A stretch of DNA of 64,000 nt from Candidatus Omnitrophota bacterium. GTDB taxonomy: Bacteria > Omnitrophota > Gorgyraeia > Aquiviventales > Aquiviventaceae. The position numbers and the translations under genes were made by a program. Below the pieces are notes generated by a model. The model made no database searches. It was not told the DNA's origin and saw only the letters and a program-made list of their open reading frames with translations. This document shows positions 3,364 to 63,775 of this stretch, piece by piece. The stretch lies in the NCBI GenBank assembly GCA_016180575.1, contig JACPAY010000001.1:857-64856 (forward strand), written 5' to 3'. Positions within the stretch are counted from its first letter, which is position 1. Each line of letters starts with the position of its first letter.

Positions 3364-3681
3364 TCAGGCAAACGCCTGCTGCAGCGTCCGCTCCACCTGC
3401 GGGACGATCGCGTCCCAACTCGCCTCTGGCGCCTTGGTCACCGAAATGAAGTTGTGCAGCGCGAACACCTGCGTCACCCCGGCAATCCGCAGCAGCGCGC
3501 CGGCCCACGGGGCGTCGGCGCTGGCGGCGTCTCCTGCCTGCGCCGCGCCTGCGGATGCACCCGGCGGCGCGGCAGGCAGACGATACGTCCGCCCCTGCGC
3601 GGCGATGGTCCGGTTGAGGGTGAACTTGACCGCCTGGGGATTAGGCGTCCCCTGCACGCTGATCTCCAGCGCCGCGCCCAT
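3364..3681 (-). CDS. Nfu/NifU N-terminal-like scaffold domain protein
   Basis: 105 aa. GTPNPQAVKFTLNR...GVTQVFALHNFISVTK resembles the Nfu_N domain. It contains palindromic insert copy a (3533-3579). Confidence 0.65.
   Translation of the reverse strand: MGAALEISVQGTPNPQAVKFTLNRTIAAQGRTYRLPAAPPGASAGAAQAGDAASADAPWAGALLRIAGVTQVFALHNFISVTKAPEASWDAIVPQVERTLQQAFA
3533..3579. repeat. intragenic GC-rich palindromic element, copy a (orientation A)
   Basis: CCTGCCTGCGCCGCGCC, a 16-nt spacer, then GGCGCGGCAGGCAG. It lies inside the Nfu-like ORF and encodes LPAAPPGASAGAAQAG. Confidence 0.75.
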
Positions 3682-5583: not shown

Positions 5584-6984
5584 ATGACATTCCTCCGACC
5601 ACTCGCGCGCTCACTCCTCGCCGGCCTGGTGTGGCTCGGCCTTGGCCTCGGCGATCAGGCCCGCGCGGCCCACGTCAACGTCATCGAGCTGGACAACCAG
5701 ATCATCAATCCGGTGACCCAGCAGTACATCACGGACGCCATCGAGCGCTCCGAGGCCGACGGGGCGGTCTGCCTGGTCCTCATGCTGGACACCCCGGGCG
5801 GCCTGCTCGAGTCCACCCGCGCCATCGTCAAGCGCATCATGAACGCCCGCGTGCCGGTCGCCGTCTATGTCGCGCCCTCCGGCTCGCGCGCCGGCTCGGC
5901 CGGCGTCTTCATCACGCTCGCCGCCCACGTCGCCGCCATGGCCCCGTCCACGAACATCGGCGCCGCCCATCCGGTCGCGGTCGGCGAGGGGGGCGGGCCG
6001 ATCAAGCGGCTCGTCCGGCGGATCAAGCGGGAGGCCGGGGAGGAGACCGTCGAGGAGGAGGCGCCCGACCCGATGGCCCAGAAGATCCTCAATGACACCG
6101 TCGCCTGGGTCACCACCATCGCGAAGACCCGCGGGCGCAACGAGACGTGGGCGGCCAAAGCGGTCACGGAAAGCTTCTCCGTCACGGAGCAGGAGGCGGT
6201 CCAGGAGCGGATCGTGGATCTGGTCGCCGCCGACCTCCCGGACCTGCTGGCCAAGAGCCACGGACGGCGCGTCGAGCTGGCCGGCGCCCCCGTGGAGCTG
6301 CAGACGCAGGAGGCGGATCTCGTCAGGCTCCCCATGTCGAGGCGCCAGGAGTTCCTGGCCGTCATCACCAACCCGAACATCGCGTATCTGTTGATGCTGC
6401 TCGGGACGCTCGGCCTCATCTTCGAGTTCACGCACCCCGGGATCGGCTTCCCCGGCATCGCCGGCCTCATCTGCCTCCTGCTTGCGCTCTACGCGTTCCA
6501 GGCGCTGCCGATCAGCTATGCCGCGGTCGCCCTGATCGCGGTGGGGATCGGCCTGCTCGTCGCGGAGGTCAAGGTGACGAGCTACGGGCTGCTGGGCGCC
6601 GGGGGGGTCATTGCGCTCACCCTGGGCAGCCTCATGCTGTTTGAGTCGCCCGACCCGCACCTCCGGGTGTCGCTCCACGTGATCCTCCCGACCGTGGCGA
6701 CCCTGGCCGCCATCATCCTCTTCGTGGTCCAGCGGGCGCTGCGGGCGCAGGCCGTGCCCGTCGCCACGGGCGCGCAAGGGCTCGTCGGCTCGATCGGGGA
6801 GGCGTCAACGGACCTGAACCCCGACGGCCAGGTGTTCGTGCACGGGGAATCCTGGAGCGCGAGCAGCCCACGGCCCGTCCGGCGGGGCGAGAAGGTGCGG
6901 GTGGTGCGCGTCGAGGGGCTGCACCTGCACGTCATCCGGTATCAGATACCGGTAGATAGACCTGGGGATTCGACCGGTATCTGA
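5584..6984 (+). CDS. NfeD family membrane-bound serine protease
   Basis: 466 aa. It has a ClpP-like N-domain (LMLDTPGGLLEST...GSRAGSAGVFI), TM helices and a C-terminal OB-like end (KVRVVRVEGLHLHV). The last 16 codons and the stop lie in hairpin repeat 6936-6990. An SPFH gene follows it. Confidence 0.85.
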   Translation: MTFLRPLARSLLAGLVWLGLGLGDQARAAHVNVIELDNQIINPVTQQYITDAIERSEADGAVCLVLMLDTPGGLLESTRAIVKRIMNARVPVAVYVAPSGSRAGSAGVFITLAAHVAAMAPSTNIGAAHPVAVGEGGGPIKRLVRRIKREAGEETVEEEAPDPMAQKILNDTVAWVTTIAKTRGRNETWAAKAVTESFSVTEQEAVQERIVDLVAADLPDLLAKSHGRRVELAGAPVELQTQEADLVRLPMSRRQEFLAVITNPNIAYLLMLLGTLGLIFEFTHPGIGFPGIAGLICLLLALYAFQALPISYAAVALIAVGIGLLVAEVKVTSYGLLGAGGVIALTLGSLMLFESPDPHLRVSLHVILPTVATLAAIILFVVQRALRAQAVPVATGAQGLVGSIGEASTDLNPDGQVFVHGESWSASSPRPVRRGEKVRVVRVEGLHLHVIRYQIPVDRPGDSTGI

Positions 6985-6990
6985 TACCGG
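6936..6990. repeat. paired palindromes CCGGTATCAGATACCGG / CCGGTATCTGATACCGG
   Basis: Two 17-nt palindromes are separated by 21 nt and are also complementary to each other. The same GTATC(A/T)GATAC word recurs at 61665-61718. Confidence 0.7.
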
Positions 6991-13888: not shown

Positions 13889-15580
13889 GTGGGCCGTGCC
13901 GTAAGATGCGGCCATCGGGGCCTTCACCTGTCGGACACCCACACGACTTCTCACGCCGAAACGATCCGGCGGTTGAGCGGGCTCATCGCGCTGGCCGCCC
14001 TGCTCGTCTTCGCCAACTGCCTGCTGAATGCGTTTGTGTGGGATGACGAGCAGTTTATCGTCAAGAACGCCTTCCTCGGTTCGCCGCGCTTCCTCCTCAA
14101 GCTGCTGACGGAGAACGTCGTCTCGGGGGCGGGCCTCGTGAGCAACCTCTACCGGCCCTTCCAGTCGCTGACCCATTTCTTCGACGTCCAGCTCTGGGGC
14201 TCCCGCGCCTGGGGCCACCACCTGACGACGGTGCTCCTCCACGCCGCGGCCTCCGTTGCCGTCTTCCGGCTCCTCGCGCGGCTCTTCGCCCCGTGGCCGG
14301 CGGCGCTGGCCGCCCTGCTCTTCTCGCTCCACCCGCTCCAGTCCGAGGCGGTCGCGTACACCTGCGGCCGCGGCGACACGCTGGCGATCCTCTTCCTCTG
14401 TCTGGGCTTGCTGGCCTTCCGCGCCCGCCGGGGCTTGAGCCTGGCCTGCGCCGCGCTCTCGGTCGCCTCCAAGGAGCACGGGGTGCTGTTTCCCGCCTTC
14501 CTCTTCCTCTACGACCGCGCCCTGGGGCGTCCGGCGCCCTTCAGGCGGCACCTGCCGTTCTGGCTGCTCTCGGCGGGCTACATCGCCGCCAGGCTGACGG
14601 TCTTGAATTTCAAGGACACGCTGAACTTCTACGGCCAGCCCAACCTCCTGACGGAGCACGTGTCGGTCCGGCTGTACACCTATCTCACGACGCTGGCGAA
14701 GGGGCTTCTGCTGTGGGTCTGGCCGGCCGACCTGCACCATGAACGATCGTGGCCTGTCTTCACGAGCCTCGCCATCCCGCAGGTCTGGCTGTCGCTGCTC
14801 CTGGTGGCCGCCCTGCTCGGGTGGTCGCTGCGGCTGCGCGCGCGCAGCCGGCCGGCCGCGATCGGCCTCTGGTGGTTTGTCATCGCCACGCTGCCCACCT
14901 CGAACCTCATCGTCCTCATCAACGCCGTCTTCTACGATCACTGGTTCATCCTGCCCGGCCTGGGCCTGGCCATGGCGGCCGGCCAGGCGCTGGAGCGGGC
15001 CTTCGCGCGCGGAGGGAGGGTGCGGGGGGCCGCGGCGGCGTTCAGCGTCGGCGCCGTCGTCGCGTGCGCGATGCTCACCGTGCGCGCCAACGGCGTCTGG
15101 CGCGATCCCATCTCGCTCTATACCCACATCCTCTTCTGGGAGCCGCGCTCGGCCAAGATCCACAACAACCTCGCCATGGCCTACAACGAGGCCGGTCGGG
15201 AGCAGGAGGCGATCGCCCTGTACCAGCGGGCGATCGCGTTGAGCGATGCGTACCCGCAGACCCACCACAACCTCGCCAACGCCTATCTCAGGAGGGGGGA
15301 TGAAGACCGCGCCCTGGAAGAGTTCGGGCGGGCGGTCGCGATGGATCCCCACTTCCACCACTCCTGGCTTCAGATCGGCGCTATCCGTCTCAAGGCGGGC
15401 CAGCCTGCGGCGTCGGCCGAGGCCTTCGCGCGGGCCGTCCACGCCTACCCCTATGCCGCCGAGGCCTACCTTGGATTAGCGGAGGCGTACCGGGCGCAAG
15501 GCAAGCCGGACGCCGCCCGGACGGTGCTCGCCTGGGGACGTGCGGCGCTGCCCGACCATCCTGCGCTCCAGGCCCCCTAA
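13889..15580 (+). CDS. polytopic membrane protein with C-terminal TPR repeats (DUF1736/TMTC-like)
   Basis: 563 aa. It reads ...FANCLLNAFVWDDEQFIVKN, has many TM helices, and ends in TPR units (NLAMAYNEAGREQEAIALYQRAIAL...). The GTG start is uncertain. Confidence 0.7.
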   Translation: MGRAVRCGHRGLHLSDTHTTSHAETIRRLSGLIALAALLVFANCLLNAFVWDDEQFIVKNAFLGSPRFLLKLLTENVVSGAGLVSNLYRPFQSLTHFFDVQLWGSRAWGHHLTTVLLHAAASVAVFRLLARLFAPWPAALAALLFSLHPLQSEAVAYTCGRGDTLAILFLCLGLLAFRARRGLSLACAALSVASKEHGVLFPAFLFLYDRALGRPAPFRRHLPFWLLSAGYIAARLTVLNFKDTLNFYGQPNLLTEHVSVRLYTYLTTLAKGLLLWVWPADLHHERSWPVFTSLAIPQVWLSLLLVAALLGWSLRLRARSRPAAIGLWWFVIATLPTSNLIVLINAVFYDHWFILPGLGLAMAAGQALERAFARGGRVRGAAAAFSVGAVVACAMLTVRANGVWRDPISLYTHILFWEPRSAKIHNNLAMAYNEAGREQEAIALYQRAIALSDAYPQTHHNLANAYLRRGDEDRALEEFGRAVAMDPHFHHSWLQIGAIRLKAGQPAASAEAFARAVHAYPYAAEAYLGLAEAYRAQGKPDAARTVLAWGRAALPDHPALQAP

Positions 15581-15659
15581 AAAAGGTACCGGTTCCTATT
15601 TTTCTCTAAGCCATTGCGCCGCAATGGCCAAGTGAAAAATAGGAACCGGTACTATTTTT
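15580..15659. terminator. long nested hairpin between convergent genes
   Basis: AAAAAGGTACCGGTTCCTATTTTT ... AAAAATAGGAACCGGTACTATTTTT, with the inner palindrome GCCATTGCG-C-CGCAATGGC. A/T runs sit on both sides. The right arm overlaps the last codons of cysH. Confidence 0.55.
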
Positions 15660-17657: not shown

Positions 17658-18041
17658 CTACCCCTCCGTGCCGTTTGCCAGCGCCTGCTCGATGGTCCGC
17701 AGGAGCTGGGCGTGGTCGATCGGCTTGTTGATGAGGCCGTCGGCTTCCCGCTGGACCGCAGCGGTGATCGCCGTGACGTCGTCGTGGTACACCGAGCACA
17801 GCACGACCGGCGCCTGCGGCCGCATCGCCTTGAGCGAGCGCAGCACCACCCCGCCGTCCATCCCGGGCATGTTGAAATCCGTGATGATGAGGTCGAACAG
17901 CTCGGCCTCGGCCCGCTCCAACCCCTCCGGGCCCGAGTAGGCGACGGCCACGTCGTAGGTCCCGGTCCGCTCGAGGTTGAGCTTCATGACCAGGCACAGG
18001 TCGCGCTCGTCGTCGATCAGCAGGATCCGCTTCTTCGTCAT
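17658..18041 (-). CDS. single-domain response regulator (CheY-like)
   Basis: The track ORF was trimmed to the ATG at 18041 (MTKKRILLIDDERD...IITDFNMPGMDG...INKP). The start overlaps the kinase stop (ATGA). Confidence 0.85.
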   Translation of the reverse strand: MTKKRILLIDDERDLCLVMKLNLERTGTYDVAVAYSGPEGLERAEAELFDLIITDFNMPGMDGGVVLRSLKAMRPQAPVVLCSVYHDDVTAITAAVQREADGLINKPIDHAQLLRTIEQALANGTEG

Positions 18042-19312
18042 CCGGGCACCTCGTGGACGATCGGCAGCACGATGGTGACCGTCGTCCCGCGCCCCTCGTG
18101 GCTCGCGAGGCTGATCCCGCCGCGGTGCTTCTCGACGATGGACCGCGAGATCGCCAACCCGAGGCCCGTCCCCTGGCCCGCCGGCTTCGTCGTGAAGAAC
18201 GGCTCGAACGCCTTCTGGACCTGGTCCGCCGGGATGCCGACGCCGGTGTCGGCGACGTCGCAGCGCACCGCAGCCTCCCCCGGCCGCCACGTCATCAGGG
18301 CCCGCCGAGCCAGCTCCACGGGGAGGCTCTCCGGCGCGGCGGCGGCGGTCCGGAGGGTCAGCTCGCCGCCCTTCGGCATCGCCTGGAGGGCGTTCAGGAT
18401 CACGTTGATGAAGACCTGCTTCATCTGGTTCTCGTCGATGACCACCGGCGGCAGCCCGTCAGCGAACGCCTGCCGCACCGCGATGTTCTGGAGCGCCAGC
18501 TGCTTCTCGACCAGCCCCAGCGAGTCCCGGATGACCTGCGCGATGTCGCAGGGCTTCGGCTCAAGCGGCCGCTGCCGGGAGAAGTTCAGCAGGTCGCGCA
18601 CGATGCGGTCCGACCGCATCACGGCCTCCTTGATCATCCGCAGGACCTCGAACCCCTCGGCGTCCTCCGGGCCGACCCGCCCCTCCAGGTAGTCGACCCC
18701 CTGCAGGATGATGCCCAGGGGGTTCTTGACCTCGTGCGCGACCCCGCTGGCGAGCTGGCCGATCGCCGCCATCTTCTCGGCGTGCACGAGCATCGCCTGC
18801 GTGTTCTTGAGCTCCTTGTAGGCCGTGTCGAGCTCGGCCGCGCGCTTGCGCGCCGCCACGGCCGAGTCGGCCGCCTCGGCGGCGAGCCGCTGCTCTTTCT
18901 CCTCCGCCCGCCGGCGCTCGGTGATGTCGCGGATGGCGACCACCGTGCTCAGCTCCTGCCGGCTGAACTGGACGCGGGCGGCGAACACCTCCAGCACCAC
19001 TGGCTGGCCGCCCCCCCGATATTCATAGCTTCCGATGGCGTTCGGCCGGCCGTTCAGGGCCAGGTGGATCGGATGGGCATGCGGGGGGAGGGGTTTGCCG
19101 CCGTCTTCAAGCGGCAGCAGGTCGACGAGCCGGGCGCCCAGCACTGCGGCGTCCAGCCGGTCCACGAGGCGGCGGAACGGCGCGTTGTACCACTGGACCC
19201 GCCCGTCTCCGTCGAGCCAGACCAGGGCGTCGACGATGGCGCTCAGCGCGACTTCCAGCTTGCCCAGCTTGGTGCGAAGATCGTCCACCCCGGTGAGGGC
19301 CGCTCCCGCCAT
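18038..19312 (-). CDS. PAS-domain sensor histidine kinase
   Basis: The start was set at the ATG at 19312, which follows an AGGAGG SD. It has a PAS-like N-domain, the H-box GVAHEVKNPL, the N-box NVILNALQA, and the G-boxes DTGVGI / GTGLGLAIS. Confidence 0.85.
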   Translation of the reverse strand: MAGAALTGVDDLRTKLGKLEVALSAIVDALVWLDGDGRVQWYNAPFRRLVDRLDAAVLGARLVDLLPLEDGGKPLPPHAHPIHLALNGRPNAIGSYEYRGGGQPVVLEVFAARVQFSRQELSTVVAIRDITERRRAEEKEQRLAAEAADSAVAARKRAAELDTAYKELKNTQAMLVHAEKMAAIGQLASGVAHEVKNPLGIILQGVDYLEGRVGPEDAEGFEVLRMIKEAVMRSDRIVRDLLNFSRQRPLEPKPCDIAQVIRDSLGLVEKQLALQNIAVRQAFADGLPPVVIDENQMKQVFINVILNALQAMPKGGELTLRTAAAAPESLPVELARRALMTWRPGEAAVRCDVADTGVGIPADQVQKAFEPFFTTKPAGQGTGLGLAISRSIVEKHRGGISLASHEGRGTTVTIVLPIVHEVPG

Positions 19313-19340
19313 CCCGCCTCCTGGTTTCCGCAACAAAAAC

Positions 19341-19368: not shown

Positions 19369-19395
19369 ATCGACACCCTTCGGCAGTCCGCCCTT

Positions 19396-19436
19396 CCGGT
19401 GCCTGGCACTTCGCTTCGCGAAGAGCCAGGCACCGG
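19396..19436. repeat. 19-bp-stem hairpin
   Basis: CCGGTGCCTGGCACTTCGC-ttc-GCGAAGAGCCAGGCACCGG (1 mismatch). It lies between divergently transcribed genes, so it is not a conventional terminator position. Confidence 0.6.
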
Positions 19437-19538
19437 ACGCGTGACTTTGCGTCCCCCGGCTTACGCCGGGTCTGCCCGTTCGAGGGTGACTGCGACTTCT
19501 GCTACCTTAATCTTAAGCATAGCATATAATGGAAGAAA

Positions 19539-20627: not shown

Positions 20628-20823
20628 CCCAAAACCTTTGGGGCGGGTCCTGCCGCCTCCGGCACCCCGCCGTCCGTCCTCGTCCCGCCGATGGCGGGAC
20701 TGCGGTCGGCGGCAGGGGCCCCCCCTCGCCGGGGGCGGCCCCCCTCTGGCTCGCTGACGCTCGCCATCTCCCCCGTCTTGCGGGGGAGTCACCTCCGGCG
20801 TCACCCGCCAGAGGGGTTTTGGG
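20628..20823. repeat. structured intergenic repeat R4 (GGCGGGT...ACCCGCC family)
   Basis: The terminal inverted repeats are CCCAAAACCTTTGGGGCGGGT / ACCCGCCAGAGGGGTTTTGGG. The inner arm is CCTGCCGC..., and the central hairpin GTCCCGCCGATGGCGGGAC is shared with R3. Confidence 0.65.
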
Positions 20824-25127: not shown

Positions 25128-26649
25128 CAGAGGCTGTTGGCGCAGTGCCGCCGGCCGAGCGGAGGGCCGCCAGCAGGGCGCCGGCCTTGTCCAGCGTCTC
25201 CCGGTACTCCCGCCCCGGGTCGGAGTCGGCCACGATGCCCGCCCCGACGTGGAACGAGAGCCGGCTTCCCTGAAGCACCATCGTGCGGATGGCGATGTTC
25301 AGGTCCATCGTCCCGTCAAACCCGAGGTAGCCGAGCGAGCCGGTGTAGAGCCCCCGCGGCACCGGCTCGAGCGCCCTGAGGATCTGCATGCAGCGGACCT
25401 TGGGACAGCCGGTGATGGTCCCGCCGGGAAACACCGCGCGGATGACGTCCACCGCGTCCGCGCCCCGGCAAAGCCAGCCCGACACGTCGGAGACGATGTG
25501 GATGACGTGGGAGTACTCCTCCAGGGTCATGAGGTCGCTCACGGCCACCGTTCCGGTCTCGCAGACGCGCCCGAGGTCGTTGCGGGCCAAGTCCACCAGC
25601 ATGATGTGCTCGGCCCGCTCCTTGTCGCTCAGCAGGAGGTCCAGGCTGTTCAGCGCATCCTCCGTCGGCGAGGCACCCCGCGGCCGCGTCCCGGCGATGG
25701 GGCGGGTGTCGATCCGCCCCTCCTGGACGCGGACGAGCCGCTCCGGGGAGCAGCTCACGACCGCCAGGTCCCCGCAGGAGAGGAAGCACGCAAACGGCGA
25801 AGGGTTGACGCGCCGCAGCGCCGCATAGAGCGCAAGCGGGCGGCCGGGCCACGTCGCGGTGAACCGCTGCGAGACGTTCGCCTGAAAGATATCGCCCGCG
25901 CGGATGTGCTCGAGGGCGCGCGCCGCCATCGCTTCAAACTCCGCCTGCGTGCTCGTGGCCTCCACGCCGGGGAAACAGGGCGCCTCCGCCCCGCCCTCCG
26001 CGCCGTCGCGCTGCGCGGCGAGCCGGCCGCTCACGCGCTCCAGGGCCTCGAGCGCCTGGCGGCGGGCCGCCGGCGGGGGGCTGTGCGGGTCGGCGACGCT
26101 GAGCAGCCAGCTCCGTTTCTCGACGTGGTCGACCAGCACGACGATCCGCATGCCGAACCACTGCATCTCCGGCACGGGTGAGCCGCCCTCCTGCGGCGGG
26201 GGCAGCCGCTCGATCCATCGGTTGAGGTCATAGCTCAGGAACCCCATGAGGCCGATCGCCCTGCCTGCCGCGCCGAGGCGGCTGCTGATGGGCGCGGCGC
26301 AGGCAGGCCGCCCATGAGGGGTCCCTCGTCCGGCGGGCGGGGCCGGGGCGCGATAGCGGCGGAGAACCTGGCGAAGCGCCTCAAGCGGATGGGCCCGCCA
26401 GACGTGCGTGGCGGCGCTCGTGCTGAGCTCAATGCGCTCCCCGCGGGCCGTCAGCGCCAGCCAGGGCGCAAACCCCAGCAGCGACCAGCGTCCGGTCACC
26501 GGATGCTGGCGCGCGCTGTCGCACCACATCACCGGCTCATCGGGCGGCAGCCCGCTGATGAGGGCGCGCAGGTCAGGGCATCCTGCAAGCGGCTGGAGGT
26601 AGACGGTGAGCGGGCCGTGTCGGAGCGCGAAGGGGGCGTCCTTGCCCAT
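25111..26649 (-). CDS. pabB: aminodeoxychorismate synthase component I (TrpE/PabB family)
   Basis: 512 aa. SPERLVRV...RPIAGTRPRG...DKERAEHIMLVDLARNDLGRV...VFPGGTITGCPK...YTGSLGY. It overlaps pabC by 17 nt and contains palindromic insert copy b. Confidence 0.85.
   Translation of the reverse strand: MGKDAPFALRHGPLTVYLQPLAGCPDLRALISGLPPDEPVMWCDSARQHPVTGRWSLLGFAPWLALTARGERIELSTSAATHVWRAHPLEALRQVLRRYRAPAPPAGRGTPHGRPACAAPISSRLGAAGRAIGLMGFLSYDLNRWIERLPPPQEGGSPVPEMQWFGMRIVVLVDHVEKRSWLLSVADPHSPPPAARRQALEALERVSGRLAAQRDGAEGGAEAPCFPGVEATSTQAEFEAMAARALEHIRAGDIFQANVSQRFTATWPGRPLALYAALRRVNPSPFACFLSCGDLAVVSCSPERLVRVQEGRIDTRPIAGTRPRGASPTEDALNSLDLLLSDKERAEHIMLVDLARNDLGRVCETGTVAVSDLMTLEEYSHVIHIVSDVSGWLCRGADAVDVIRAVFPGGTITGCPKVRCMQILRALEPVPRGLYTGSLGYLGFDGTMDLNIAIRTMVLQGSRLSFHVGAGIVADSDPGREYRETLDKAGALLAALRSAGGTAPTASDAASR
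26259..26307. repeat. intragenic GC-rich palindromic element, copy b (orientation B)
   Basis: CCTGCCTGCCGCGCC, 16 nt, then GGCGCGGCGCAGGCAGG. It lies inside pabB and encodes RPACAAPISSRLGAAGRA. Confidence 0.75.
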
Positions 26650-31721: not shown

Positions 31722-32586
31722 TGTCGTGGTAGAGGTACTGCTGCGCGTAGCCCGCGTAGGGGCCGAAGTGGCGCCGCGCGTAGTCGTGCAGGGCCTTGCG
31801 CGTCATGCGCCGGTGCCGGAAGTAGTAGCGCATCGCCCGCTCCATCCAGACGTCGATCGGGAACGCCTCGTACTTCTCAAAGCCGAAGAGTGCCACGCAG
31901 TCCGCCACCTTGTCCCCCACCCCGTCGCAGCCTAAGAGCGCCTGCTTCGCCGCGTCGTAGCCCACCCGCCGCAGGTGCTCCGTGGGCAGCCCCCCGTCCG
32001 CGACGAGCCGCGCCGTCGCCTTCAGGTAGGGCGCGCGGTAGCCGAGGCCCAGGCTGCGCAGCCGCCGCTCAGAGGCGCCGGCAATCGTCTCCGGCCGCGG
32101 AAAGCTGAACCCGCGGAAGCCGTTGAGGGCAACTGGCTCCCCGTACGCCTGGCAGAGCCGCTCGAGCATCCCCTCGATGCGCTTGATGTTGTTGAACGAG
32201 GCGCAGATGAACGACGCCAGCGTCTCCCAGCCGTCCTGCCGCAGCACCCGCAGCCCCCGGTGTCGGCGGATCGCCTGGTGGACCTGCATGTCCACGTTGA
32301 TGGAGGAGAGGATCGCGGGGAGGTCGAGGTCGAGGGCGAAGTAGCGGCGGATCCGGTCAGGGGTGAGGGCGGGGTCGGAGGTCTCGCAGAGGAGCCGGCC
32401 GCCCTCCTGCCGGACCTTCACGACGGACGGCCCGATGAGCCCGTAGAACCACCCGTCGCCTGCCTGCCGCGCCTCGTCCGCTCCAGAGTCGCGCGGCGCA
32501 GGCAGGTGCGCTTTCCACCGGAAGGCCTGGCCGGAGGAGAGGCTCGCCTGGAGGGAGAAGTCCGGCGCGGCAACCTCGAACATCAA
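31693..32586 (-). CDS. ogg: 8-oxoguanine DNA glycosylase / AP lyase (OGG1 family, HhH-GPD)
   Basis: 297 aa. GQAFRW...SFICASFNNIKRI...LLGCDGVGDKVADCV...PIDVW. It contains palindromic insert copy f in the N-terminal domain. Confidence 0.8.
   Translation of the reverse strand: MMFEVAAPDFSLQASLSSGQAFRWKAHLPAPRDSGADEARQAGDGWFYGLIGPSVVKVRQEGGRLLCETSDPALTPDRIRRYFALDLDLPAILSSINVDMQVHQAIRRHRGLRVLRQDGWETLASFICASFNNIKRIEGMLERLCQAYGEPVALNGFRGFSFPRPETIAGASERRLRSLGLGYRAPYLKATARLVADGGLPTEHLRRVGYDAAKQALLGCDGVGDKVADCVALFGFEKYEAFPIDVWMERAMRYYFRHRRMTRKALHDYARRHFGPYAGYAQQYLYHDIRTARGRLS
32459..32506. repeat. intragenic GC-rich palindromic element, copy f (orientation B)
   Basis: CCTGCCTGCCGCGCC, 17 nt, then GCGCGGCGCAGGCAGG. 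It lies inside ogg and encodes LPAPRDSGADEARQAG. Confidence 0.75.
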
Positions 32587-34862: not shown

Positions 34863-34883
34863 TGTAGAGGTATCAAAATTCTC

Positions 34884-35186: not shown

Positions 35187-35306
35187 TTCAACCTCCCATC
35201 TTTCAACCGGTGGCAGCGCGACGGTTATCGTGGTGCTCTCTTACCGGTTGAGGCTACGCTCCACGCACGCGGCCTGGCTGTAATGTGGCCGCTATAGTTC
35301 GTTGAT

Positions 35307-35752: not shown

Positions 35753-38551
35753 TTACGAGCAGCCTGAAGTGCAACCACAGTTCAGACATTTGTAACACGC
35801 GGCGTTGCGCACCATCAGCGAGCCGCACTCCGGGCAGGCCGGGGCGTCCGCCTGGGCGACGAACGTGACCTTCTCCTGCTGCTCGAACGGATTGACCGCC
35901 GCCGCCTGCGGGGCGGGCTTCGGCGCGCCTGCCTGCGCCGCGCCGGGCGCGGCAGGCAGGCCGTTGGCGGGCTTGGCGCCGGGCGGCTCGGTGACCTTGA
36001 AGTGCTGCGCCTCCTCCGCCGGCAGGAACTTCAGCGCCATCCAGCGGAAGATGTAGTCGATGATCGACTTGGCGAACCGGATGTCCTTGTTGTTCGTGAC
36101 CCCGGAGGGCTCGAACCGCACGTGCGAGAACTTGTTCACGAGCACCTTGAGCGGGACGCCGTACTGGAGGGCAAGCGAGACCATCGTGGCGAAGGCGTCC
36201 ATGAGGCCGGAGAGGGTCGAGCCTTCCTTCGAGATCGTGATGAAGATCTCGCCGGGTGAGCCGTCCTCGAAGAGGCCGACGGTCAGGTACCCCTCGTGCC
36301 CGCCGACCGAGAACTTGTGCGTGATCGCCTGCCGCTCATCCGCGAGCCGCCGGCGGTAGGGCGTGCCGGCCGGGGCCTTCTTGGCGGCGCCCTTCTCCTC
36401 TTTGCTCGTCGAGAGCGGCTGGACCCGCTTGGAGCCGTCGCGGTAGATGGCGATCGCCTTGATGCCCAGGCGCCAGGCCTCGGTGTAGGCCTGGCAGATG
36501 TCCTCGACCGCGGCCTCCGGCGGCAGGTTCACCGTCTTTGAAATCGCCCCGCTGATGAACGGCTGCACCGCGCCCATCATCCGCACGTGGCCCATGTAGT
36601 GGATGGAGCGCGTGCCGTTGATGGGGCGAAACGCGCAGTCGAAGATCGGGAGGTGCTCCGGTTTCAGCCCCGGGGCGCCTTCAATCGTGTCCTTCTCGTT
36701 GATGTGCTTGAGGATCAGTTCGACCTCGGACGCCTCATAGCCCAGCTTCGCGAGCGCCTTCCGGACGGTCTGGTTGACGATCTTGAGCACCCCGCCGCCC
36801 ACCAGCCGCTTGTACTTCACGAGCGCGATGTCCGGCTCGACCCCGGTCGTGTCGCAGTCCATGAGGAAGGCGATGGTCCCGGTCGGCGCGATGACGCTCA
36901 TCTGCGAGTTGCGCACCCCGGCGCGCTCGCCGAGCGTGATCGCCTCATCCCACGCGCGGGCGGCCGCCTGGAGGAGCGGCGGCGGCACCAGGCGGTGGTT
37001 CACCTTGTCCACCTGGGCGCGGTGCTTGCGCAGGACGCGCAGCTGCGGCTCGCGGTTGCGCGCAAAGCCCGCGTACGGCCCGAGCTGCTCGGCGAGCTGG
37101 CCGGACACCTCGTAGGCGTGGCCGGTCATGAGCGCGCTGACCGCCCCGGACCAGGCCCGCCCTTCCTCCGAGTCGTACGCGACGCCGAGCGACATCAGCA
37201 GCGCCCCGAGGTTCGCGTAGCCGAGGCCCAGCTCCCGGTAGTCGCGGGCGTTGTGCGCGATCTTCTCGGTGGGGTAGGAGGAGTTGTCGATGACGATGTC
37301 CTGCGCGATGATGAGGATCCGCACCGCGTACTTGAACTGCTCGATGAGGAAGTTGCCCTCGTCATCGAGGAATTTCAGGAGGTTGATGCTGGCGAGGTTG
37401 CAGGCGGAGTTGTCCAGGTGCATGTACTCGCTGCAGGGGTTGGAGGCGTTGATCCGGCCGGTGTTGGGGCAGGTGTGCCAGTCGTTGATCGTGGTGTCGA
37501 ACTGCATCCCCGGGTCGCCGCAGTGCCAGGTCGCCTCGGCGATGAGCCGCAGGAGGTCGCGCGCCTTGACCCGCTCCATGATCTCGCCCGTCGTCACCGC
37601 CTTGAGGTCCCATTCCTCATCGGCGAGCGCGCGCTTCATGAACTCGTCGGTCGCGCGCACCGAGTTGTTCGCGTTCTGGAAGAAGACCGAGCCGTACGCC
37701 TCCCCGTCGATCGCGGCGTCGTAGCCGACGTCGATGAGCTTGTGCGCCTTCTCCTCCTCCTTCCACTTGCAGAGGATGAAGAGCCTGACGTCCGGGTGGT
37801 CGGCGTTGAGGACCACCATCTTGGCCGCGCGCCGCGTCTTGCCGCCGGACTTGATGACGCCCGCGGAGGCGTCCGCCGCCCGCATGAACGACACCGGCCC
37901 CGAGGCGGTCCCGCCGCCGGCGAGCCGCTCGCGCGAGGAGCGCAGGTTCGACACGTTCAGGCCGGAGCCTGAGCCGTACTTGAAGATCATCCCCTCGTTG
38001 CGGTACCACTCGAGGATGGAGTCCATCGTGTCGTCCACCGAGAGGATGAAGCACGCGCTGCACTGGGGGCGGGGCTCGATGCCGACGTTGAACCACACCG
38101 GCGAGTTGAACGCGGCGTACTGGTGGACGAGCAGGTAGGTGAGCTCCGCGCGGAACGCCTCGGCGTCCTCGGCGGAGGCGAAGTAGCCGTCCTTGATGCC
38201 CCAGTCGGCAATCGTGTTGGCGACGCGGCCGATGAGCTGCTTGACGCTCCGCTCCCGCTGCGGGGTGCCGAGCGCGCCGCGGAAATACTTCGACACCACC
38301 ACGTTGGTGGCCAGCTGGCTCCAGAAGGCGGGCACCTCCACGTCCTTCTGCTCGAAGACCACCCCGCCCTTCTCGTTGCCGATGGTCGCGGTGCGCAGCT
38401 CCCAGGTGATCTCGTCGAAGGGGTGAACGGCCGGACGGGTCCAGCGCCTGGAAACGGTCAACCCCCCGAGCACCGCCTGCGCCTCCCCCGACTTCAGCGC
38501 TGCCGTCGCCGCCTGGCCCGACCCGTGCTGCGCGGTCACCTCACCCATCAC
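35753..38551 (-). CDS. nrdJ: adenosylcobalamin-dependent (class II) ribonucleotide reductase
   Basis: 932 aa. ...SACFIL...NPCSEYMHLDNSACNLASINL...GLGYANL... shows the class II active-site pattern, with a C-terminal Cys4 finger CPECG...CYKCLNCG. The start is GTG 38551 or ATG 38548, after a GAGGAGGA SD. It contains palindromic insert copy d. Confidence 0.9.
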   Translation of the reverse strand: MMGEVTAQHGSGQAATAALKSGEAQAVLGGLTVSRRWTRPAVHPFDEITWELRTATIGNEKGGVVFEQKDVEVPAFWSQLATNVVVSKYFRGALGTPQRERSVKQLIGRVANTIADWGIKDGYFASAEDAEAFRAELTYLLVHQYAAFNSPVWFNVGIEPRPQCSACFILSVDDTMDSILEWYRNEGMIFKYGSGSGLNVSNLRSSRERLAGGGTASGPVSFMRAADASAGVIKSGGKTRRAAKMVVLNADHPDVRLFILCKWKEEEKAHKLIDVGYDAAIDGEAYGSVFFQNANNSVRATDEFMKRALADEEWDLKAVTTGEIMERVKARDLLRLIAEATWHCGDPGMQFDTTINDWHTCPNTGRINASNPCSEYMHLDNSACNLASINLLKFLDDEGNFLIEQFKYAVRILIIAQDIVIDNSSYPTEKIAHNARDYRELGLGYANLGALLMSLGVAYDSEEGRAWSGAVSALMTGHAYEVSGQLAEQLGPYAGFARNREPQLRVLRKHRAQVDKVNHRLVPPPLLQAAARAWDEAITLGERAGVRNSQMSVIAPTGTIAFLMDCDTTGVEPDIALVKYKRLVGGGVLKIVNQTVRKALAKLGYEASEVELILKHINEKDTIEGAPGLKPEHLPIFDCAFRPINGTRSIHYMGHVRMMGAVQPFISGAISKTVNLPPEAAVEDICQAYTEAWRLGIKAIAIYRDGSKRVQPLSTSKEEKGAAKKAPAGTPYRRRLADERQAITHKFSVGGHEGYLTVGLFEDGSPGEIFITISKEGSTLSGLMDAFATMVSLALQYGVPLKVLVNKFSHVRFEPSGVTNNKDIRFAKSIIDYIFRWMALKFLPAEEAQHFKVTEPPGAKPANGLPAAPGAAQAGAPKPAPQAAAVNPFEQQEKVTFVAQADAPACPECGSLMVRNAACYKCLNCGCTSGCS
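35928..35960. repeat. intragenic GC-rich palindromic element, copy d (orientation A, minimal spacer)
   Basis: CCTGCCTGCGCCGCGCC-g-GGCGCGGCAGGCAGG lies in the C-terminal linker of nrdJ and encodes LPAAPGAAQAG. Confidence 0.75.
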
Positions 38552-40259: not shown

Positions 40260-41057
40260 TCAGAGGCGGAACGAGGCGAGGTCGCGCGCGAGCGTCAGGC
40301 GGCCGCGGAAGGCGCGGCGCACCCGCCGCCGGATGTCGTAGCCCTTGAACACGGGGTAGAAATGGGTCAGCACGAGATGCCGGCAGTTGGCCGACGCTGC
40401 GATGCGGCCGCACTCGGTCGGGGTGAGGTGGCCTGCCACCTTGCGCTCATCGGGCACGGAGCACTCGAGGATGAGCAGGTGGGTGTCGCGGCCGAGCTCG
40501 ACGATGGCGTCGCAGAGGTCCGTGTCGCCCGAATAGGCGATGCGCTTCCCGTCGGCCTCCAGCCGGTAGCCGAGGGCGGGCGCTGAGTGGCGCATCCAGC
40601 GCGCGCGCATCGTCCCCTTCCCCAGCTTCACCATCGCCTCCTTGATCTCCTTCAGCCGGAGCGCGTAGCCCCGCGGGGTGAGCCAGCCGTTGAGCGCGCT
40701 GTTGAGCCGCCGGTAGAGCCGCTTCAGGCCCGGCGGCCCGTAGACGGCGAGCGGCGCGCGCGGCGGGCGGTCGGGGATGCCTGCCTGCGCCGCGCCTATC
40801 GAACGACTCTTCGGCGCGGCAGGCAGGCGCAGGGCGAAGAGGAGGCTGGCCAGATCCAGGCAGTGGTCGAGGTGGTAGTGGGTGAGGAACACGCGGTCGA
40901 GCGTGAAGAGGTTCCCGCCGGCCGCGTGCAGCCGCTGGAGCGTCCCCGGCCCGGCATCAATGAGCAGCCGCTCGCCGGCCGCCTCGATGAAGAGGCCGGA
41001 TGGGCTGCGGTCCCGCGCGGGGATCGCCGTCCCGGCGCCGAGGATGGTCACCCGCAT
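40260..41057 (-). CDS. MBL-fold metallo-hydrolase (RNase Z/BN-like)
   Basis: 265 aa. LIDAGPG...LTHYHLDHCLDL...YSGDT.... It contains palindromic insert copy c. Confidence 0.8.
   Translation of the reverse strand: MRVTILGAGTAIPARDRSPSGLFIEAAGERLLIDAGPGTLQRLHAAGGNLFTLDRVFLTHYHLDHCLDLASLLFALRLPAAPKSRSIGAAQAGIPDRPPRAPLAVYGPPGLKRLYRRLNSALNGWLTPRGYALRLKEIKEAMVKLGKGTMRARWMRHSAPALGYRLEADGKRIAYSGDTDLCDAIVELGRDTHLLILECSVPDERKVAGHLTPTECGRIAASANCRHLVLTHFYPVFKGYDIRRRVRRAFRGRLTLARDLASFRL
40780..40827. repeat. intragenic GC-rich palindromic element, copy c (orientation A)
   Basis: CCTGCCTGCGCCGCGCC, 16 nt, then GGCGCGGCAGGCAGG. It lies inside the MBL hydrolase and encodes LPAAPKSRSIGAAQAG. Confidence 0.75.
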
Positions 41058-62506: not shown

Positions 62507-63775
62507 CGCGAAGGTTTCCAGGTGGTTGGTCTGCGGGAACATGTCAAACGCCTGGAGCGCGGCGAGCCGGTAGCGGGGGAAGCCCGTGCACAACATCCCC
62601 AGGTCGCGGACGAGCGACTGGACGTTGCAGGAGAGGTAGGCGATCTGGAGGGGTCGGGCGGCGAGGATGGACGCGATGGCCTGGGGATGCAGGCCGGCGC
62701 GCGGGGGATCCGCCACGATGACATCCGGTCTTGCCTCCTGGAGCCAGAACCGGCGGTCCAGGAGCAACGCTTCCACCTTCCCTGCCCGGAACTCCACGTT
62801 GCGCATCCCGTTCAGCGACGCGTTCAGCGCCGCCAGCTCCAGGTGGTGCGGCTCCCCGTCGATCCCATAGACCTTCCGCATCCGTGAGGCGAGGTAGAAC
62901 GCGATGAGCCCGAGGCCGCAGTAGAGGTCCCACGCCACTCCGCCCGCGCCGGGACGGAGGCGCTCGCACACCGTCGCGTACATCCGGTCCGCCTGGGCGG
63001 TGTTCGGCTGCAGGAAGCTCAGCGGGTGCAGCTTGATGCGGAACGGGCCCATCCGCTCCTCCAGGTGAGGGGTGCCCTCCAGCAGGATCAATTCCTCCGG
63101 GACCGCGATGTCCGCCACGCGGCCCGTCAGGCCCCAGTAGAAGCTGCCGATCGCCGGATGGCGCGCCGCCACGTCATGGGCCAGCCCCTCCACGACAGCG
63201 CGCACATCCGCGCCATTCCCTGTCGCCCCATGAGCGGAGGCGGGCCTGCCTGCCGCGCCGCCCTCAGGTGACCGCGCGGCGCAGGCAGGCGATGTCATCA
63301 GGCATACCAGGAGGCGGCCCGTCGCGCGGCTGATGCGCACGAGGAGGTGCCGGAAAAAACCCTGATGGGTGCGCGGATGGTAGGGTGGAAGGCCGGTCCG
63401 GGCGGCGGCGTCCCGGACGTCGCGCAGCACGCGGGCCGCCGGCTCAGGCACGAGCAGGCAATCGTCGAGATCCACCACGCGCCAGAAGGAGCGCGCGGCA
63501 TGGTAGCCCAGCGCCAGCCGGCCGTCCTGCTCCCCGAAGGTGAACTCGGCCTTGTTCCGGTACCGCCAGGGATCCTCCAATCCGATGAGCTCCACCGACG
63601 GGACGTCACCCAGCGCCGCGAGGGCGCGGCCGAGCCGCTCACGCTTCAGCACAAGCTGATCCGGGTAAGCCACATCCTGCAGGGCGCATCCCCCGCACGC
63701 GCCGAAATACGGACAGGGCGGCTCCACGCGCGGGAACGCCGCTTTCTCCTGCACGAGCAGCTGCTCAGTGCGCAT
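62492..63775 (-). CDS. 23S rRNA (uracil-5)-methyltransferase RlmD/RumA-like
   Basis: 427 aa. The Fe-S Cys motif is CPYFGACGGCALQ. The SAM site is DLYCGLGLI, followed by ...DPPRAG... and the nucleophile region YLSCN. It contains palindromic insert copy e. Confidence 0.8.
   Translation of the reverse strand: MRTEQLLVQEKAAFPRVEPPCPYFGACGGCALQDVAYPDQLVLKRERLGRALAALGDVPSVELIGLEDPWRYRNKAEFTFGEQDGRLALGYHAARSFWRVVDLDDCLLVPEPAARVLRDVRDAAARTGLPPYHPRTHQGFFRHLLVRISRATGRLLVCLMTSPACAARSPEGGAAGRPASAHGATGNGADVRAVVEGLAHDVAARHPAIGSFYWGLTGRVADIAVPEELILLEGTPHLEERMGPFRIKLHPLSFLQPNTAQADRMYATVCERLRPGAGGVAWDLYCGLGLIAFYLASRMRKVYGIDGEPHHLELAALNASLNGMRNVEFRAGKVEALLLDRRFWLQEARPDVIVADPPRAGLHPQAIASILAARPLQIAYLSCNVQSLVRDLGMLCTGFPRYRLAALQAFDMFPQTNHLETFALLER
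63245..63289. repeat. intragenic GC-rich palindromic element, copy e (orientation B)
   Basis: CCTGCCTGCCGCGCC, 14 nt, then GCGCGGCGCAGGCAGG. It lies inside the RlmD-like gene and encodes PACAARSPEGGAAGR. Confidence 0.75.

What the first reader, a model, noticed from the sequence alone, without database searches (positions are those of the whole stretch)
3533..3579. A short GC-rich palindromic element sits in-frame inside six unrelated enzyme genes (family description; copy a)
The same imperfect palindrome occurs at six places. The arms are CCTGCCTGC(G)CCGCGCC and GGCGCGGC(GC)AGGCAGG. They are separated by an unrelated spacer of 14-17 nt in five copies and about 1 nt in one copy. The copies lie at 3533-3579 (Nfu-like), 26259-26307 (pabB), 32459-32506 (ogg), 35928-35960 (nrdJ), 40780-40827 (MBL hydrolase) and 63245-63289 (RlmD-like). 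Every copy lies inside an ORF whose flanks are recognisable conserved enzyme sequence, and none breaks the reading frame. Both orientations occur (a, c, d versus b, e, f). The element is read in at least three phases, giving Ala/Gly/Pro-rich peptides: LPAAP..GAAQAG, RPACAAP..GAAGRA and LPAPR..ARQAG. The arms also resemble the inner arms (GGTCCTGCCGCGCCGCC) of the larger intergenic repeats R1-R4. This behaviour matches that described for Rickettsia palindromic elements, which are selfish DNA tolerated inside coding sequence. Six copies in 64 kb would imply a very large genome-wide family.
Basis: partly seen in the sequence, partly recalled or inferred. Interest (0 to 1): 0.78.

Follow-up and report, generated by a model that had tools for sequence, protein, structure and literature searches.

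The report
Tiny hairpin DNA parasite inside genes
A 33-60-base GC-rich hairpin sequence has been copied, always in multiples of three bases, into the middle of many unrelated and often essential enzyme genes of uncultured Omnitrophota and related bacteria. There it is read as a short Ala/Pro/Gly-rich loop, which makes it a new free-living counterpart of the Rickettsia palindromic elements.

Summary
Six copies of an imperfect palindrome lie in-frame in six unrelated genes (Nfu, PabB/TrpE-like, Ogg, NrdJ, MBL hydrolase, RlmD) of an Omnitrophota MAG. The arms are CCTGCCTGC-GC-CGCGCC and GGCGCG-GCAGGCAGG, so one arm carries a 2-nt bulge. Shuffled sequence gives about 0.04 arm hits where 6 are seen.

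Close orthologues of the MBL and Ogg genes lack exactly the 48 nt, with no target duplication longer than 2 nt. An AlphaFold model places the MBL insert in a low-confidence loop.

Across MAGs labelled Planctomycetes, Omnitrophota, Verrucomicrobia and others I found 42 distinct canonical copies. Forty have lengths that are multiples of 3 (33-60 nt; p=3e-17), and the two exceptions show no coding signal. Hosts include RpoC, DnaE, AtpD, PGK and RadA. Reading frames are strongly biased towards LPAAP..AAQAG. This implies the element is translated and that Arg/Cys-rich frames are purged. The outer stem and GC bulge are invariant, the inner stem covaries, and loops vary.

Best reading: a non-autonomous, selfish hairpin mobile element that behaves like RPEs or intragenic REPs but belongs to neither family. 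Its mobilising enzyme is unknown, and no transposase lies in the window. The claimed kinship to the larger intergenic repeats and the genome-wide family size remain unverified.

The parts
3533..3580 (+). Copy a. 48 nt, 17-nt arm first on the + strand. It is antisense to its host gene, the Nfu_N ORF at 3364-3681 (-), and is read as LPAAPPGASAGAAQAG.
26260..26307 (-). Copy b. 48 nt, sense to its host gene, the PabB/TrpE-like ORF at 25111-26649 (-). It is read as PACAAPISSRLGAAGR and lies just before the conserved G-x-x-GFLSYD block.
32459..32506 (-). Copy c. 48 nt, sense to its host gene, the Ogg ORF at 31693-32586 (-). It is read as LPAPRDSGADEARQAG. It is absent from orthologues L029, L031 and L207.
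35928..35960 (+). Copy d, the minimal 33-nt form. It is antisense to its host gene, the NrdJ ORF at 35753-38551 (-), and is read as LPAAPGAAQAG in the variable linker before the Cys-rich C-terminal tail.
40780..40827 (+). Copy e. 48 nt, antisense to its host gene, the MBL-fold hydrolase ORF at 40260-41057 (-). It is read as LPAAPKSRSIGAAQAG. It is absent from the closest orthologues and lies in a predicted loop.
63245..63289 (-). Copy f. 45 nt, sense to its host gene, the RlmD-like ORF at 62492-63775 (-). It is read as PACAARSPEGGAAGR. It lies in a segment where the solved homologue 5xj1 has 8 residues and this protein has 34.

Best explanation
This is a family of very small, non-autonomous mobile DNA hairpins. 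The basic unit is 33 nt: a 9-bp outer stem CCTGCCTGC/GCAGGCAGG, a GC dinucleotide bulge on one arm, a 4-6-bp inner stem and a 1-5-nt loop. Longer forms of 36-60 nt carry extra or nested sequence at the apex.

Shown:
- Copies enter chromosomal DNA as a precise block, without a target-site duplication longer than 2 nt.
- Copies occur in both orientations and in many unrelated genes.
- The sequence has no stop codon in any frame.
- Canonical copies have lengths that are multiples of 3, except two that show no coding signal.
- Inside genes the element is read mostly in the frames that give small, flexible Ala/Pro/Gly/Leu/Gln peptides. The modelled MBL insert lies in a loop.

Inferred:
- The element is selfish.
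- Insertions that shift the frame or encode Arg/Cys-rich peptides are removed by selection.
- Mobilisation is done in trans by an enzyme encoded elsewhere. That enzyme would recognise the invariant base of the stem plus the bulge, probably on folded single-stranded DNA, as the REP/RAYT, IS200/IS605 and integron attC systems do.
- The same arms in MAGs labelled as several phyla reflect horizontal spread of that machinery.
For: Insertion polymorphism at nucleotide resolution:
- MBL gene: the empty allele in L028 reads CTG CGC ATC CCC. The window reads CTG CG[C CTG...48 nt...GCA GG]C ATC CCC.
- Ogg gene: the empty allele in L207 reads CAC GAG GGG. The window reads CAC[48 nt]GAC GGG. L029 and L031 are also empty.
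- 109 of 120 Ogg orthologues and most MBL orthologues lack the insert.
- Filled and empty alleles are interleaved in the MBL tree.

Lineage-specific expansion:
- The window has 3 copies in the 10-kb region that is syntenic with L029 (1 copy) and L031 (0 copies).
- One Planctomycetales MAG carries three copies of its own 57-nt subfamily in different genes, including LpxK and RadA.

Sequence that is foreign to its hosts:
- Identical 32-nt arms occur in genomes of 50-70% GC.
- The arms use the codons CCT and GCA, which make up only 4.1% of Pro codons and 2.3% of Ala codons in the window's genes.

Evidence for translation and selection:
- 40 of 42 canonical copies have lengths that are multiples of 3 (p=3e-17). 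The two exceptions have no coding signal.
- Frame counts are 16/6/4/1/0/0 across the six possible frames (p=7e-8).

Essential hosts include RpoC, DnaE, AtpD, PGK and RadA.

The structure is conserved. The outer stem and GC bulge are invariant, and the inner stem shows compensatory changes. The covariation score is 0.123 against 0.050 in shuffles, with 0 of 500 shuffles reaching it.

Location in the protein: the AF2 model puts the MBL insert in a stretch with pLDDT 52-64, directly after helix 63-77.
Against: - No mobilising gene was found. None of about 50 window ORFs hits a transposase or integrase family. No long element bounded by the same arms appeared in about 200 fetched loci.
- No conserved target motif or tag flanks the copies.
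- Orientation in the window is 3:3 on what looks like a single replichore. This does not fit the strong lagging-strand bias expected for IS200/IS605-type transposition.
- Loops are mostly dissimilar between copies. Recent copy-and-paste is therefore not directly visible in the window.
- The same codon boundary is occupied in diverged MBL and Ogg orthologues. This could mean one old insertion followed by repeated precise loss or allele exchange, rather than repeated transposition.
- The phylum labels are only MAG record titles.
Confidence: 0.68

Rival explanations
1. There were few ancient insertions and no ongoing transposition. Each site was hit once in an ancestor. The patchy pattern then comes from hairpin-stimulated precise deletion and from homologous recombination of alleles between related populations. 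The arms stay intact because any indel in them shifts the reading frame.
For: - The same nucleotide position is occupied in diverged orthologues. For MBL these are the window, L029 and L030. For Ogg these are the window and L205.
- The loop of window copy e resembles the inverted loop of the L029 copy (p about 0.006), which suggests common descent with an in-place flip.
- Arm divergence between the window and L029 is not clearly lower than that of the flanking codons.
Against: - This does not explain identical arms in dozens of unrelated genes and in genomes of 50-70% GC.
- It does not explain a genome-specific 57-nt subfamily found in three different genes.
- It does not explain the retention of the rare codons CCT and GCA.
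- It would require many independent precise losses: 109 of 120 Ogg orthologues are empty, including the closest ones.
Confidence: 0.14
2. The hairpin is a host-selected cis-acting signal at the DNA or RNA level. It could be a pause or processing site in mRNA, a protein-binding or uptake/recombination site in DNA, or similar. It would spread because it is useful or because of biased uptake (molecular drive).
For: - The hairpin shape and GC bulge are conserved, with compensatory changes in the inner stem.
- The predicted stems are very stable, at -26 to -35 kcal/mol.
- DNA uptake sequences are also known to sit in genes in preferred frames (my own knowledge, not tested here).
Against: - There is no positional regularity within genes or operons.
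- Presence is patchy even among close orthologues.
- Copies decay towards host codon usage: CCT has become CCC in L029.
- No Rfam family matches the elements.
- Other, unrelated 33-nt hairpin families occupy the same protein loops. This looks like tolerance rather than function.
Confidence: 0.1
3. The inserts are not translated. They would be removed from the mRNA or skipped by the ribosome, like the yeast mitochondrial 'byp' elements or phage T4 gene 60.
For: Short GC-rich hairpins sit inside essential genes such as rpoC and atpD. This resembles mitochondrial bypass elements (my own knowledge).
Against: - Removal would free the length and the reading frame from constraint. Yet 40 of 42 copies are multiples of 3, and frames are strongly biased towards benign peptides.
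- There are no stop codons in the frame used.
- No matching take-off and landing codons flank the copies.
Confidence: 0.04
4. The pattern is a chance or compositional artefact of GC-rich Ala/Gly/Pro codon usage, or of local low-complexity expansion.
For: The window is about 70% GC. Single arms do occur by chance in GC-rich viral contigs.
Against: - Codon shuffles give 0.04 hits against 6 observed.
- The chance single-arm occurrences never have a partner arm.
- An identical element sits in a 50% GC genome, inside a SET-domain gene.
Confidence: 0.01

Closest known systems
Rickettsia palindromic elements (RPE; Ogata et al. 2000, 2002, as summarised in PMC10969869 and PMC3733652)
   Same: - It is a repeated palindromic element inserted in-frame into many unrelated, functional and often essential genes.
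- It is translated as an extra peptide.
- It is lineage-specific relative to orthologues.
- The modelled MBL insert lies in a loop.
- No mobilising enzyme is known.
   Different: - This element is 33-60 nt (11-20 aa), whereas RPEs are about 100-150 nt.
- It is about 85% GC rather than AT-rich.
- It has no CGTC terminal tag.
- Its loop is variable, whereas RPEs encode a conserved peptide.
- Its hosts are uncultured Omnitrophota and other MAGs from environmental samples, not obligate intracellular alphaproteobacteria.
- The same arms are seen in MAGs labelled as several phyla.
REP elements and RAYT transposases, including the intragenic GTAG/CGTC REPs reported by Di Nocera et al. 2013 (PMC3733652)
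   Same: - It is a 20-40-nt imperfect GC-rich stem-loop.
- The base of the stem is conserved and the apex is variable.
- It has no target-site duplication.
- Some REPs are known to lie within ORFs.
   Different: - It has no GTAG or CGTC tag.
- Copies are single rather than inverted pairs (REPIN/BIME).
- Most copies lie inside genes rather than between them.
- No RAYT gene was seen.
- Lengths are quantised in codons.
Bacterial MITEs (Correia/NEMIS, ERIC, Nezha and others)
   Same: It is a non-coding, non-autonomous repeat with inverted-repeat ends. MITEs occasionally make in-frame fusions with host ORFs (PMC10969869).
   Different: - It is several times smaller than typical MITEs of 70-300 bp.
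- It has no target-site duplication.
- No parent insertion sequence with matching terminal repeats was found.
Yeast mitochondrial GC clusters and 'byp' elements; coding palindromes of Nematomorpha mitochondria (PMC6649704, abstract only; the rest is my own knowledge)
   Same: They are short GC-rich palindromic mobile clusters that land inside protein-coding genes.
   Different: - They are organellar.
- Byps are skipped by the ribosome and are not restricted to multiples of 3. Here the length and frame constraints indicate translation.
Integron attC sites and IS200/IS605 terminal hairpins
   Same: They are imperfect hairpins. Extrahelical bases and the stem base are the recognised features, and the apical region varies freely in sequence and length. 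They act as folded single strands and integrate without a target-site duplication.
   Different: - This element has no GTTRRRY core sites, no cassette array and no intI.
- It has no conserved tetranucleotide 5' of the insertion point.
- It shows no strand bias in the window.
- This comparison is a mechanistic lead, not a claim of membership.

Membership tests
Rickettsia palindromic elements (RPE) | Palindromic repeat inserted in-frame in unrelated functional ORFs | tested here: met
   Six of six window copies are in-frame in Pfam-identified genes. Twenty-seven further copies have a confident coding frame.
Rickettsia palindromic elements (RPE) | Element length of about 100-150 bp, encoding a conserved peptide of 30-50 aa | tested here: not met
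   Lengths are 33-60 nt. Only the arm-encoded residues are conserved, and the loops vary.
Rickettsia palindromic elements (RPE) | CGTC terminal tag (per PMC3733652) and sequence relationship to the RPE-1 to RPE-10 families of Rickettsia | tested here: not met
   The ends are CCTG...CAGG, and the flanks show no conserved tetranucleotide. I did not make a direct alignment to RPE consensus sequences, which were not available in the tools.
REP / RAYT system | Imperfect GC-rich stem-loop of 20-40 nt present in many copies | tested here: met
   The basic unit is a 33-nt hairpin of -26 kcal/mol. There are 42 distinct canonical copies.
REP / RAYT system | Conserved GTAG (or CGTC) tetranucleotide at one end | tested here: not met
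   The flanks of 33 copies show no such motif.
REP / RAYT system | Predominantly extragenic location, often as inverted pairs (REPIN/BIME) | tested here: not met
   All six window copies and most others lie inside genes, and all are single copies.
REP / RAYT system | A RAYT (Y1 HUH transposase) gene in the genome, flanked by REPs | not testable with these tools
   No such Pfam hit occurs among about 50 ORFs of the 64-kb window. The rest of the genome could not be scanned.
MITE | Terminal inverted repeats | tested here: met
   The arms are 15 and 17 nt long and complementary.
MITE | Target-site duplication flanking each copy | tested here: not met
   Comparison of filled and empty sites shows a gain of exactly 48 nt, with at most a 1-2-nt ambiguity at the junction.
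MITE | A parent insertion sequence with the same terminal repeats | tested here: inconclusive
   No arm pair at 0.1-4 kb that encloses a transposase was found in the fetched loci. One multicopy repeat at contig ends carries the hairpin about 35 nt from its end, but its gene is cut off.
Integron attC | R''/R' core sites (RYYYAAC / GTTRRRY) and a position in a cassette array next to intI | tested here: not met
   The arm sequences differ, the copies lie inside housekeeping genes, and no integrase is present in the window.
IS200/IS605-type single-strand transposition | Conserved target tetra- or pentanucleotide immediately 5' of every insertion, and orientation bias to the lagging-strand template | tested here: not met
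   There is no conserved 5' flank. Orientation is 3:3 in a window with monotonic GC skew. Selection on the encoded peptide could mask a bias.
Ribosomal bypass elements (byp / T4 gene 60 type) | The insert is not translated: its length is unconstrained, it contains in-frame stops, and it has matching take-off and landing codons | tested here: not met
   Forty of 42 copies are multiples of 3, the frames are open, and the frame distribution is biased. The flanking codons do not match.

The most novel reading that the evidence does not exclude
This could be a previously undescribed class of 'codon-quantised' mobile hairpins. The unit would be 33 nt, the smallest mobile DNA known to me. It would be specialised for life inside protein-coding genes through three properties: a length that is a multiple of 3, no stop codon in any of the six frames, and a benign Ala/Pro/Gly coding potential. 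It would move by precise insertion and excision catalysed by an unknown hairpin- and bulge-recognising enzyme, and it would be exchanged horizontally among Omnitrophota, Planctomycetota, Verrucomicrobiota and others. Several unrelated 33-nt families (this one, a CCCCGG...CCGGGG family and a CCTGCCCGCCC family) target the same protein loops, which hints at a shared length-measuring mechanism.
Probability: 0.3. Interest if true: 0.8.

Novelty: new variant of a known kind. Interest (0 to 1): 0.62.

Why it matters
In-frame selfish palindromes have long been regarded as a peculiarity of Rickettsia. Here the same lifestyle appears in abundant, uncultured environmental bacteria. The element is three to four times smaller than an RPE and sits in core genes such as rpoC, dnaE, atpD and pgk.

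The family offers three things:
- It is a natural experiment on which protein loops tolerate 11-20 extra residues.
- It is a source of lineage-specific indels that will confuse orthology, phylogeny and gene calling in MAGs.
- It is a clean sequence handle (outer stem plus GC bulge) with which to hunt for the still-unknown enzyme that moves such hairpins. That question is also unsolved for RPEs.

Tried and rejected
- Search for a parent insertion sequence. I looked for long-range arm pairs in about 200 loci and found nothing convincing. The multicopy contig-end repeat in CAZYTX01 carries the hairpin near its end, but its outward-facing gene is truncated after 15 codons.
- Search for a mobiliser in the window. 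Pfam scans of about 50 ORFs found no transposase or integrase.
- Known RNA families. Rfam matched only two tRNAs and a c-di-GMP-I riboswitch, and nothing on the elements.
- Cultured plasmids and phages. I found only weak partial matches. Viral contigs gave only chance single-arm hits.
- Peptide search with GLPAAPGAAQAG.
- Target-site motif and target-site duplication. I inspected the flanks of 33 copies. There is only a weak G...C preference that extends the palindrome by 1 bp.
- Kinship with the large intergenic palindromes (R1-R4). Only an 11-mer is shared, and they have a different architecture of 130-190 nt with AT-containing termini, so I rejected this as unsupported.
- DNA for several filled orthologues (P0008, P0009, P0041) could not be fetched because the files were too large.
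It cannot be used for abundance estimates.
- Literature searches for the arm sequence and for intragenic palindromes in Omnitrophota or Planctomycetes found no description of this family.

Full report

Yes. The 17-nt arm CCTGCCTGCGCCGCGCC occurs six times in the window with 0-1 mismatch. Whole-window dinucleotide shuffles give a mean of 3.8 hits even when up to 3 mismatches are allowed. Each occurrence faces the 15-nt arm GGCGCGGCAGGCAGG.

Reading the copies shows that the palindrome is asymmetric. One arm carries two extra bases, GC, between a 9-bp outer stem (CCTGCCTGC/GCAGGCAGG) and a 6-bp inner stem (CGCGCC/GGCGCG). Orientation can therefore be defined. Copies a (3533-3580), d (35928-35960) and e (40780-40827) have the 17-nt arm first on the + strand. 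Copies b (26260-26307), c (32459-32506) and f (63245-63289) have it first on the - strand.

The lengths are 48, 48, 48, 33, 48 and 45 nt, all multiples of three.

Codon-shuffling the six host genes gives 0.04 arm hits against 6 observed. In viral contigs the 17-mer occurs 48 times by chance, and none of those has a partner arm. Chance and codon usage are excluded.

**2. Host genes and frames**

All six copies lie in ORFs on the - strand. Pfam and NCBIfam identify these as Nfu_N, a PabB/TrpE-like chorismate-binding enzyme, Ogg, class II ribonucleotide reductase NrdJ, an MBL-fold/RNase Z-like hydrolase and RlmD.

The element is read as follows:
- LPAAP..GAAQAG in copies a, d and e, where it is antisense to the gene.
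- PACAAP..GAAGR in copies b and f, where it is sense.
- LPAPR..ARQAG in copy c, where it is sense in a second phase.

The window comes from a Candidatus Omnitrophica MAG, because the MBL protein is 100% identical to an NCBI MAG protein. Pfam scans of about 50 window ORFs show ordinary housekeeping genes and no transposase or integrase.

**3. Are the inserts lineage-specific?**

Yes, and this can be seen at nucleotide resolution.

- MBL gene. Most MBL orthologues are 249 aa, against 265 aa in the window. The empty allele in L028 (84% aa identity) reads CTG CGC ATC CCC. The window reads CTG CG[C CTG CCT ... GCA GG]C ATC CCC. This is a gain of exactly 48 nt with only a 1-2-nt junction ambiguity, so there is no real target-site duplication.
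- Ogg gene. For Ogg, 109 of 120 orthologues are empty in this region. Locus L207 (85% aa identity) reads CAC GAG GGG where the window reads CAC[48 nt]GAC GGG. The syntenic relatives L029 and L031 lack exactly the 16 residues.
- NrdJ gene. This copy sits in a variable Ala/Pro linker.
- RlmD gene. This copy lies where the solved homologue 5xj1 has 8 residues and this protein has 34.
- PabB gene. This copy lies immediately before the conserved GFLSYD block, where alignments to solved PabB/TrpE structures begin.
- Structure. An AlphaFold2 model of the MBL protein (mean pLDDT 87) places the insert directly after helix 63-77, in the only stretch of low confidence (pLDDT 52-64).

**4. The family beyond the window**

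An exact two-arm pattern scan of one genome per species found 27 loci. The MAGs are labelled Planctomycetales, Omnitrophota, Verrucomicrobia, Victivallales, Methylomirabilota, Deltaproteobacteria, Bacillota and unclassified, and their GC content ranges from 50 to 70%.

I pooled these with the window, the orthologue loci and the canonical hits of a relaxed metagenome scan. This gives 42 distinct canonical copies.

- Forty of the 42 have lengths that are multiples of 3 (33, 36, 39, 42, 45, 48, 51, 54, 57 or 60 nt; binomial p=3e-17). The two exceptions (56 and 44 nt) show no coding signal.
- I used GC3 periodicity to call frames, a method that recovers the six known window frames. Among 27 copies with a confident frame, the counts are 16 LPAAP..AAQAG, 6 PACAAP..GAAGR, 4 LPAPR..ARQAG and 1 CLPRR, with none in the remaining two Arg/Cys-rich frames (chi-square p=7e-8).
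- Hosts identified by Pfam include RNA polymerase beta', DNA polymerase III alpha, ATP synthase beta, RadA, phosphoglycerate kinase, a ClpB-like ATPase, LpxK, an SNF2 helicase, a radical SAM enzyme, a type I restriction R subunit and a SET-domain protein.

The length and frame constraints together show that the element is translated and that selection removes unfavourable frames.

**5. Anatomy and conservation**

Among 33-nt hairpins that share the outer stem, 22 of 30 distinct sequences keep GC at positions 10-11. The inner stem meanwhile changes with compensation. For example, CGCGAC/GTCGCG occurs in one copy and CTACC/GGTAG occurs in L205, which sits at the same Ogg codon boundary as the window's copy. 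Pair counting gives a covariation score of 0.123 against 0.050 in shuffles, with 0 of 500 shuffles reaching it. Five of the six inner pairs change on both sides.

Loops are mostly dissimilar, but there is an excess of related pairs: 11 at score 14 or more, against 3.6 expected. Two patterns stand out:
- One Planctomycetales MAG has a genome-specific 57-nt subfamily (ATGACGC...CATC) in three different genes.
- The loop of window copy e matches the loops of L029 and L021 in inverted orientation (p about 0.006). This suggests that the apex can flip between the arms.

The long forms contain a second, diverged hairpin nested at the apex (L002, L003, L005, L020). The predicted stems are very stable, at -26 to -35 kcal/mol.

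The arms use the codons CCT and GCA, which make up 4.1% of Pro codons and 2.3% of Ala codons in the window's genes. In the older-looking L029 copy, CCT has become CCC. Copies therefore arrive as foreign sequence and then decay.

**6. Dynamics**

The window carries three copies in the 10-kb stretch that is syntenic with L029 (one copy) and L031 (none). This indicates expansion in the window's lineage.

In the MBL tree, filled and empty alleles are interleaved. The same nucleotide position holds the element in both orientations (window versus L030).

Other hairpin families occupy the same loops:
- A 33-nt CCCCGG...CCGGGG element sits two codons downstream in the MBL gene (L201).
- A longer element with a GTCGGCAGCC/GGCTGCCGAC stem occurs in the MBL gene of L031.
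- In Ogg there are a 'PSTR..LARDS' family and a 33-nt CCTGCCCGCCC family.

Either these loops are insertion hot spots, or they are the few places where such inserts are tolerated. I cannot separate recurrent site-specific insertion from a single old insertion followed by precise loss or allele exchange.

**7. Mechanism**

Shown:
- The element is gained as a precise block, without a target-site duplication.
- It occurs in both orientations.
- Canonical copies have lengths that are multiples of 3, apart from two that show no coding signal.
- It is translated.
- The base of the stem and the bulge are conserved, and the apex is free to vary.

Inferred:
- The element is selfish and non-autonomous.
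- It is mobilised in trans by an enzyme that reads the stem base and the bulge on folded DNA.

This architecture is shared with REP/RAYT, the IS200/IS605 ends and integron attC sites, but the defining features of each of those systems are not met. There is no GTAG or CGTC tag, no conserved 5' target motif, no strand bias (3:3 in a window with monotonic GC skew), no core sites and no integrase.

Removal from the mRNA or ribosomal bypass is made unlikely by the length and frame constraints.

**8. Comparison with what is known, and novelty**

The behaviour matches that of Rickettsia palindromic elements (PMC10969869, PMC3733652) and of the occasional intragenic REPs (PMC3733652). Membership in either family fails on size, tag and sequence.

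I found no description of this family in the literature library, in Rfam, or among cultured plasmids and phages.

I class it as a new variant of a known kind. It is a much smaller, codon-quantised relative of the RPE/REP lifestyle that is found in MAGs labelled as several phyla of uncultured environmental bacteria. The mobiliser is unknown, which is the main open question.

Noticed in passing
window 26704-26884, 40118-40245, 49421-49538, 20649-20723: These are large (about 100-190 nt), highly self-complementary intergenic repeats. Three have the termini GTGTCTCAATTTGGCGGGT...ACCCGCCAAATTGAGACAC. The copy at 26743-26860 contains a perfect 59-nt tandem duplication. They form a MITE-like family distinct from the in-gene hairpin, with which they share only the 11-mer CCTGCCGCGCC.
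   Followed up: partly
window 33500-35750: A lower-GC stretch (about 59% against 68-72%) lies between the dCTP deaminase and nrdJ genes. Its ORFs lack the high GC3 of the rest of the window, and one has a Schlafen AlbA_2 domain. The syntenic loci L029 and L031 have only an 81-aa ORF here, so this looks like an acquired island.
   Followed up: partly
window 19379-19486 (-): A c-di-GMP-I riboswitch (Rfam, 45.6 bits) lies directly upstream of a PAS/HisKA/HATPase histidine kinase gene at 18038-19336 (-).
   Followed up: no
L201:36-818; L031:10001-10810; L206:43-960; proteins P0138, P0146, P0155, P0172, P0200: Other short hairpin insert families occupy the same MBL and Ogg loops in related Omnitrophota. 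They are a 33-nt CCCCGG...CCGGGG element (peptide IPR..RRGG), a roughly 60-nt element with a GTCGGCAGCC/GGCTGCCGAC stem (peptide PPVGSPSAADTSSAARTVP, nearly identical in two distant orthologues), a 33-nt CCTGCCCGCCC... element (peptide PARP..GGG), and a 22-35-aa 'PSTR..LARDS' insert.
   Followed up: partly
L006:1-175, L015:1-215, L024:1-166, L013:5199-5353: In one MAG (CAZYTX01) a 39-nt copy of the hairpin lies about 35 nt inside the end of a multicopy repeat that terminates four contig ends. It is followed by a second hairpin (CCCACACAGC..GCTGTGTGGG) and sits about 85 nt upstream of an outward-facing gene that starts MTDITDLQMNTIKFF. This may be an insertion sequence that carries the hairpin in its end, but the gene is cut off.
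   Followed up: partly
L002:2855-6610: A 1252-aa SNF2/NOV_C helicase in a Verrucomicrobia MAG carries at least three element-derived peptides. One is a nested 60-nt copy (GLPAAPGLPVRGTQTGAAQAG). The other two are decayed copies (GLPAGAAQAG and GLPAEDAAQAG).
   Followed up: no
window 6936-6990 and 61665-61718; 57339-57405; 15579-15659: Other intergenic palindromes are present. Two share the core GTATCAGATAC (CCGGTATCAGATACCGG and CGCGTATCTGATACGG). There is also a perfect 26-nt inverted repeat and an AT-rich 40-nt inverted repeat. They may be operators or terminators.
   Followed up: no
window 28679-30840: Two adjacent paralogous D-Ala-D-Ala ligase-like ATP-grasp genes share a 183-nt stretch at 72% identity. 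The same pair is present in L029 and L031.
   Followed up: no
L090, L092, L100, L111, L130, L139 and others (metagenome loci): A common 38-41-nt nested palindrome, CCTGCCTGCCGCCTGCCTGCCGGTAGGCAGGGCAGGCAGG, shares the outer stem but its length is not a multiple of 3. It probably represents a related intergenic family. I did not examine its context.
   Followed up: no
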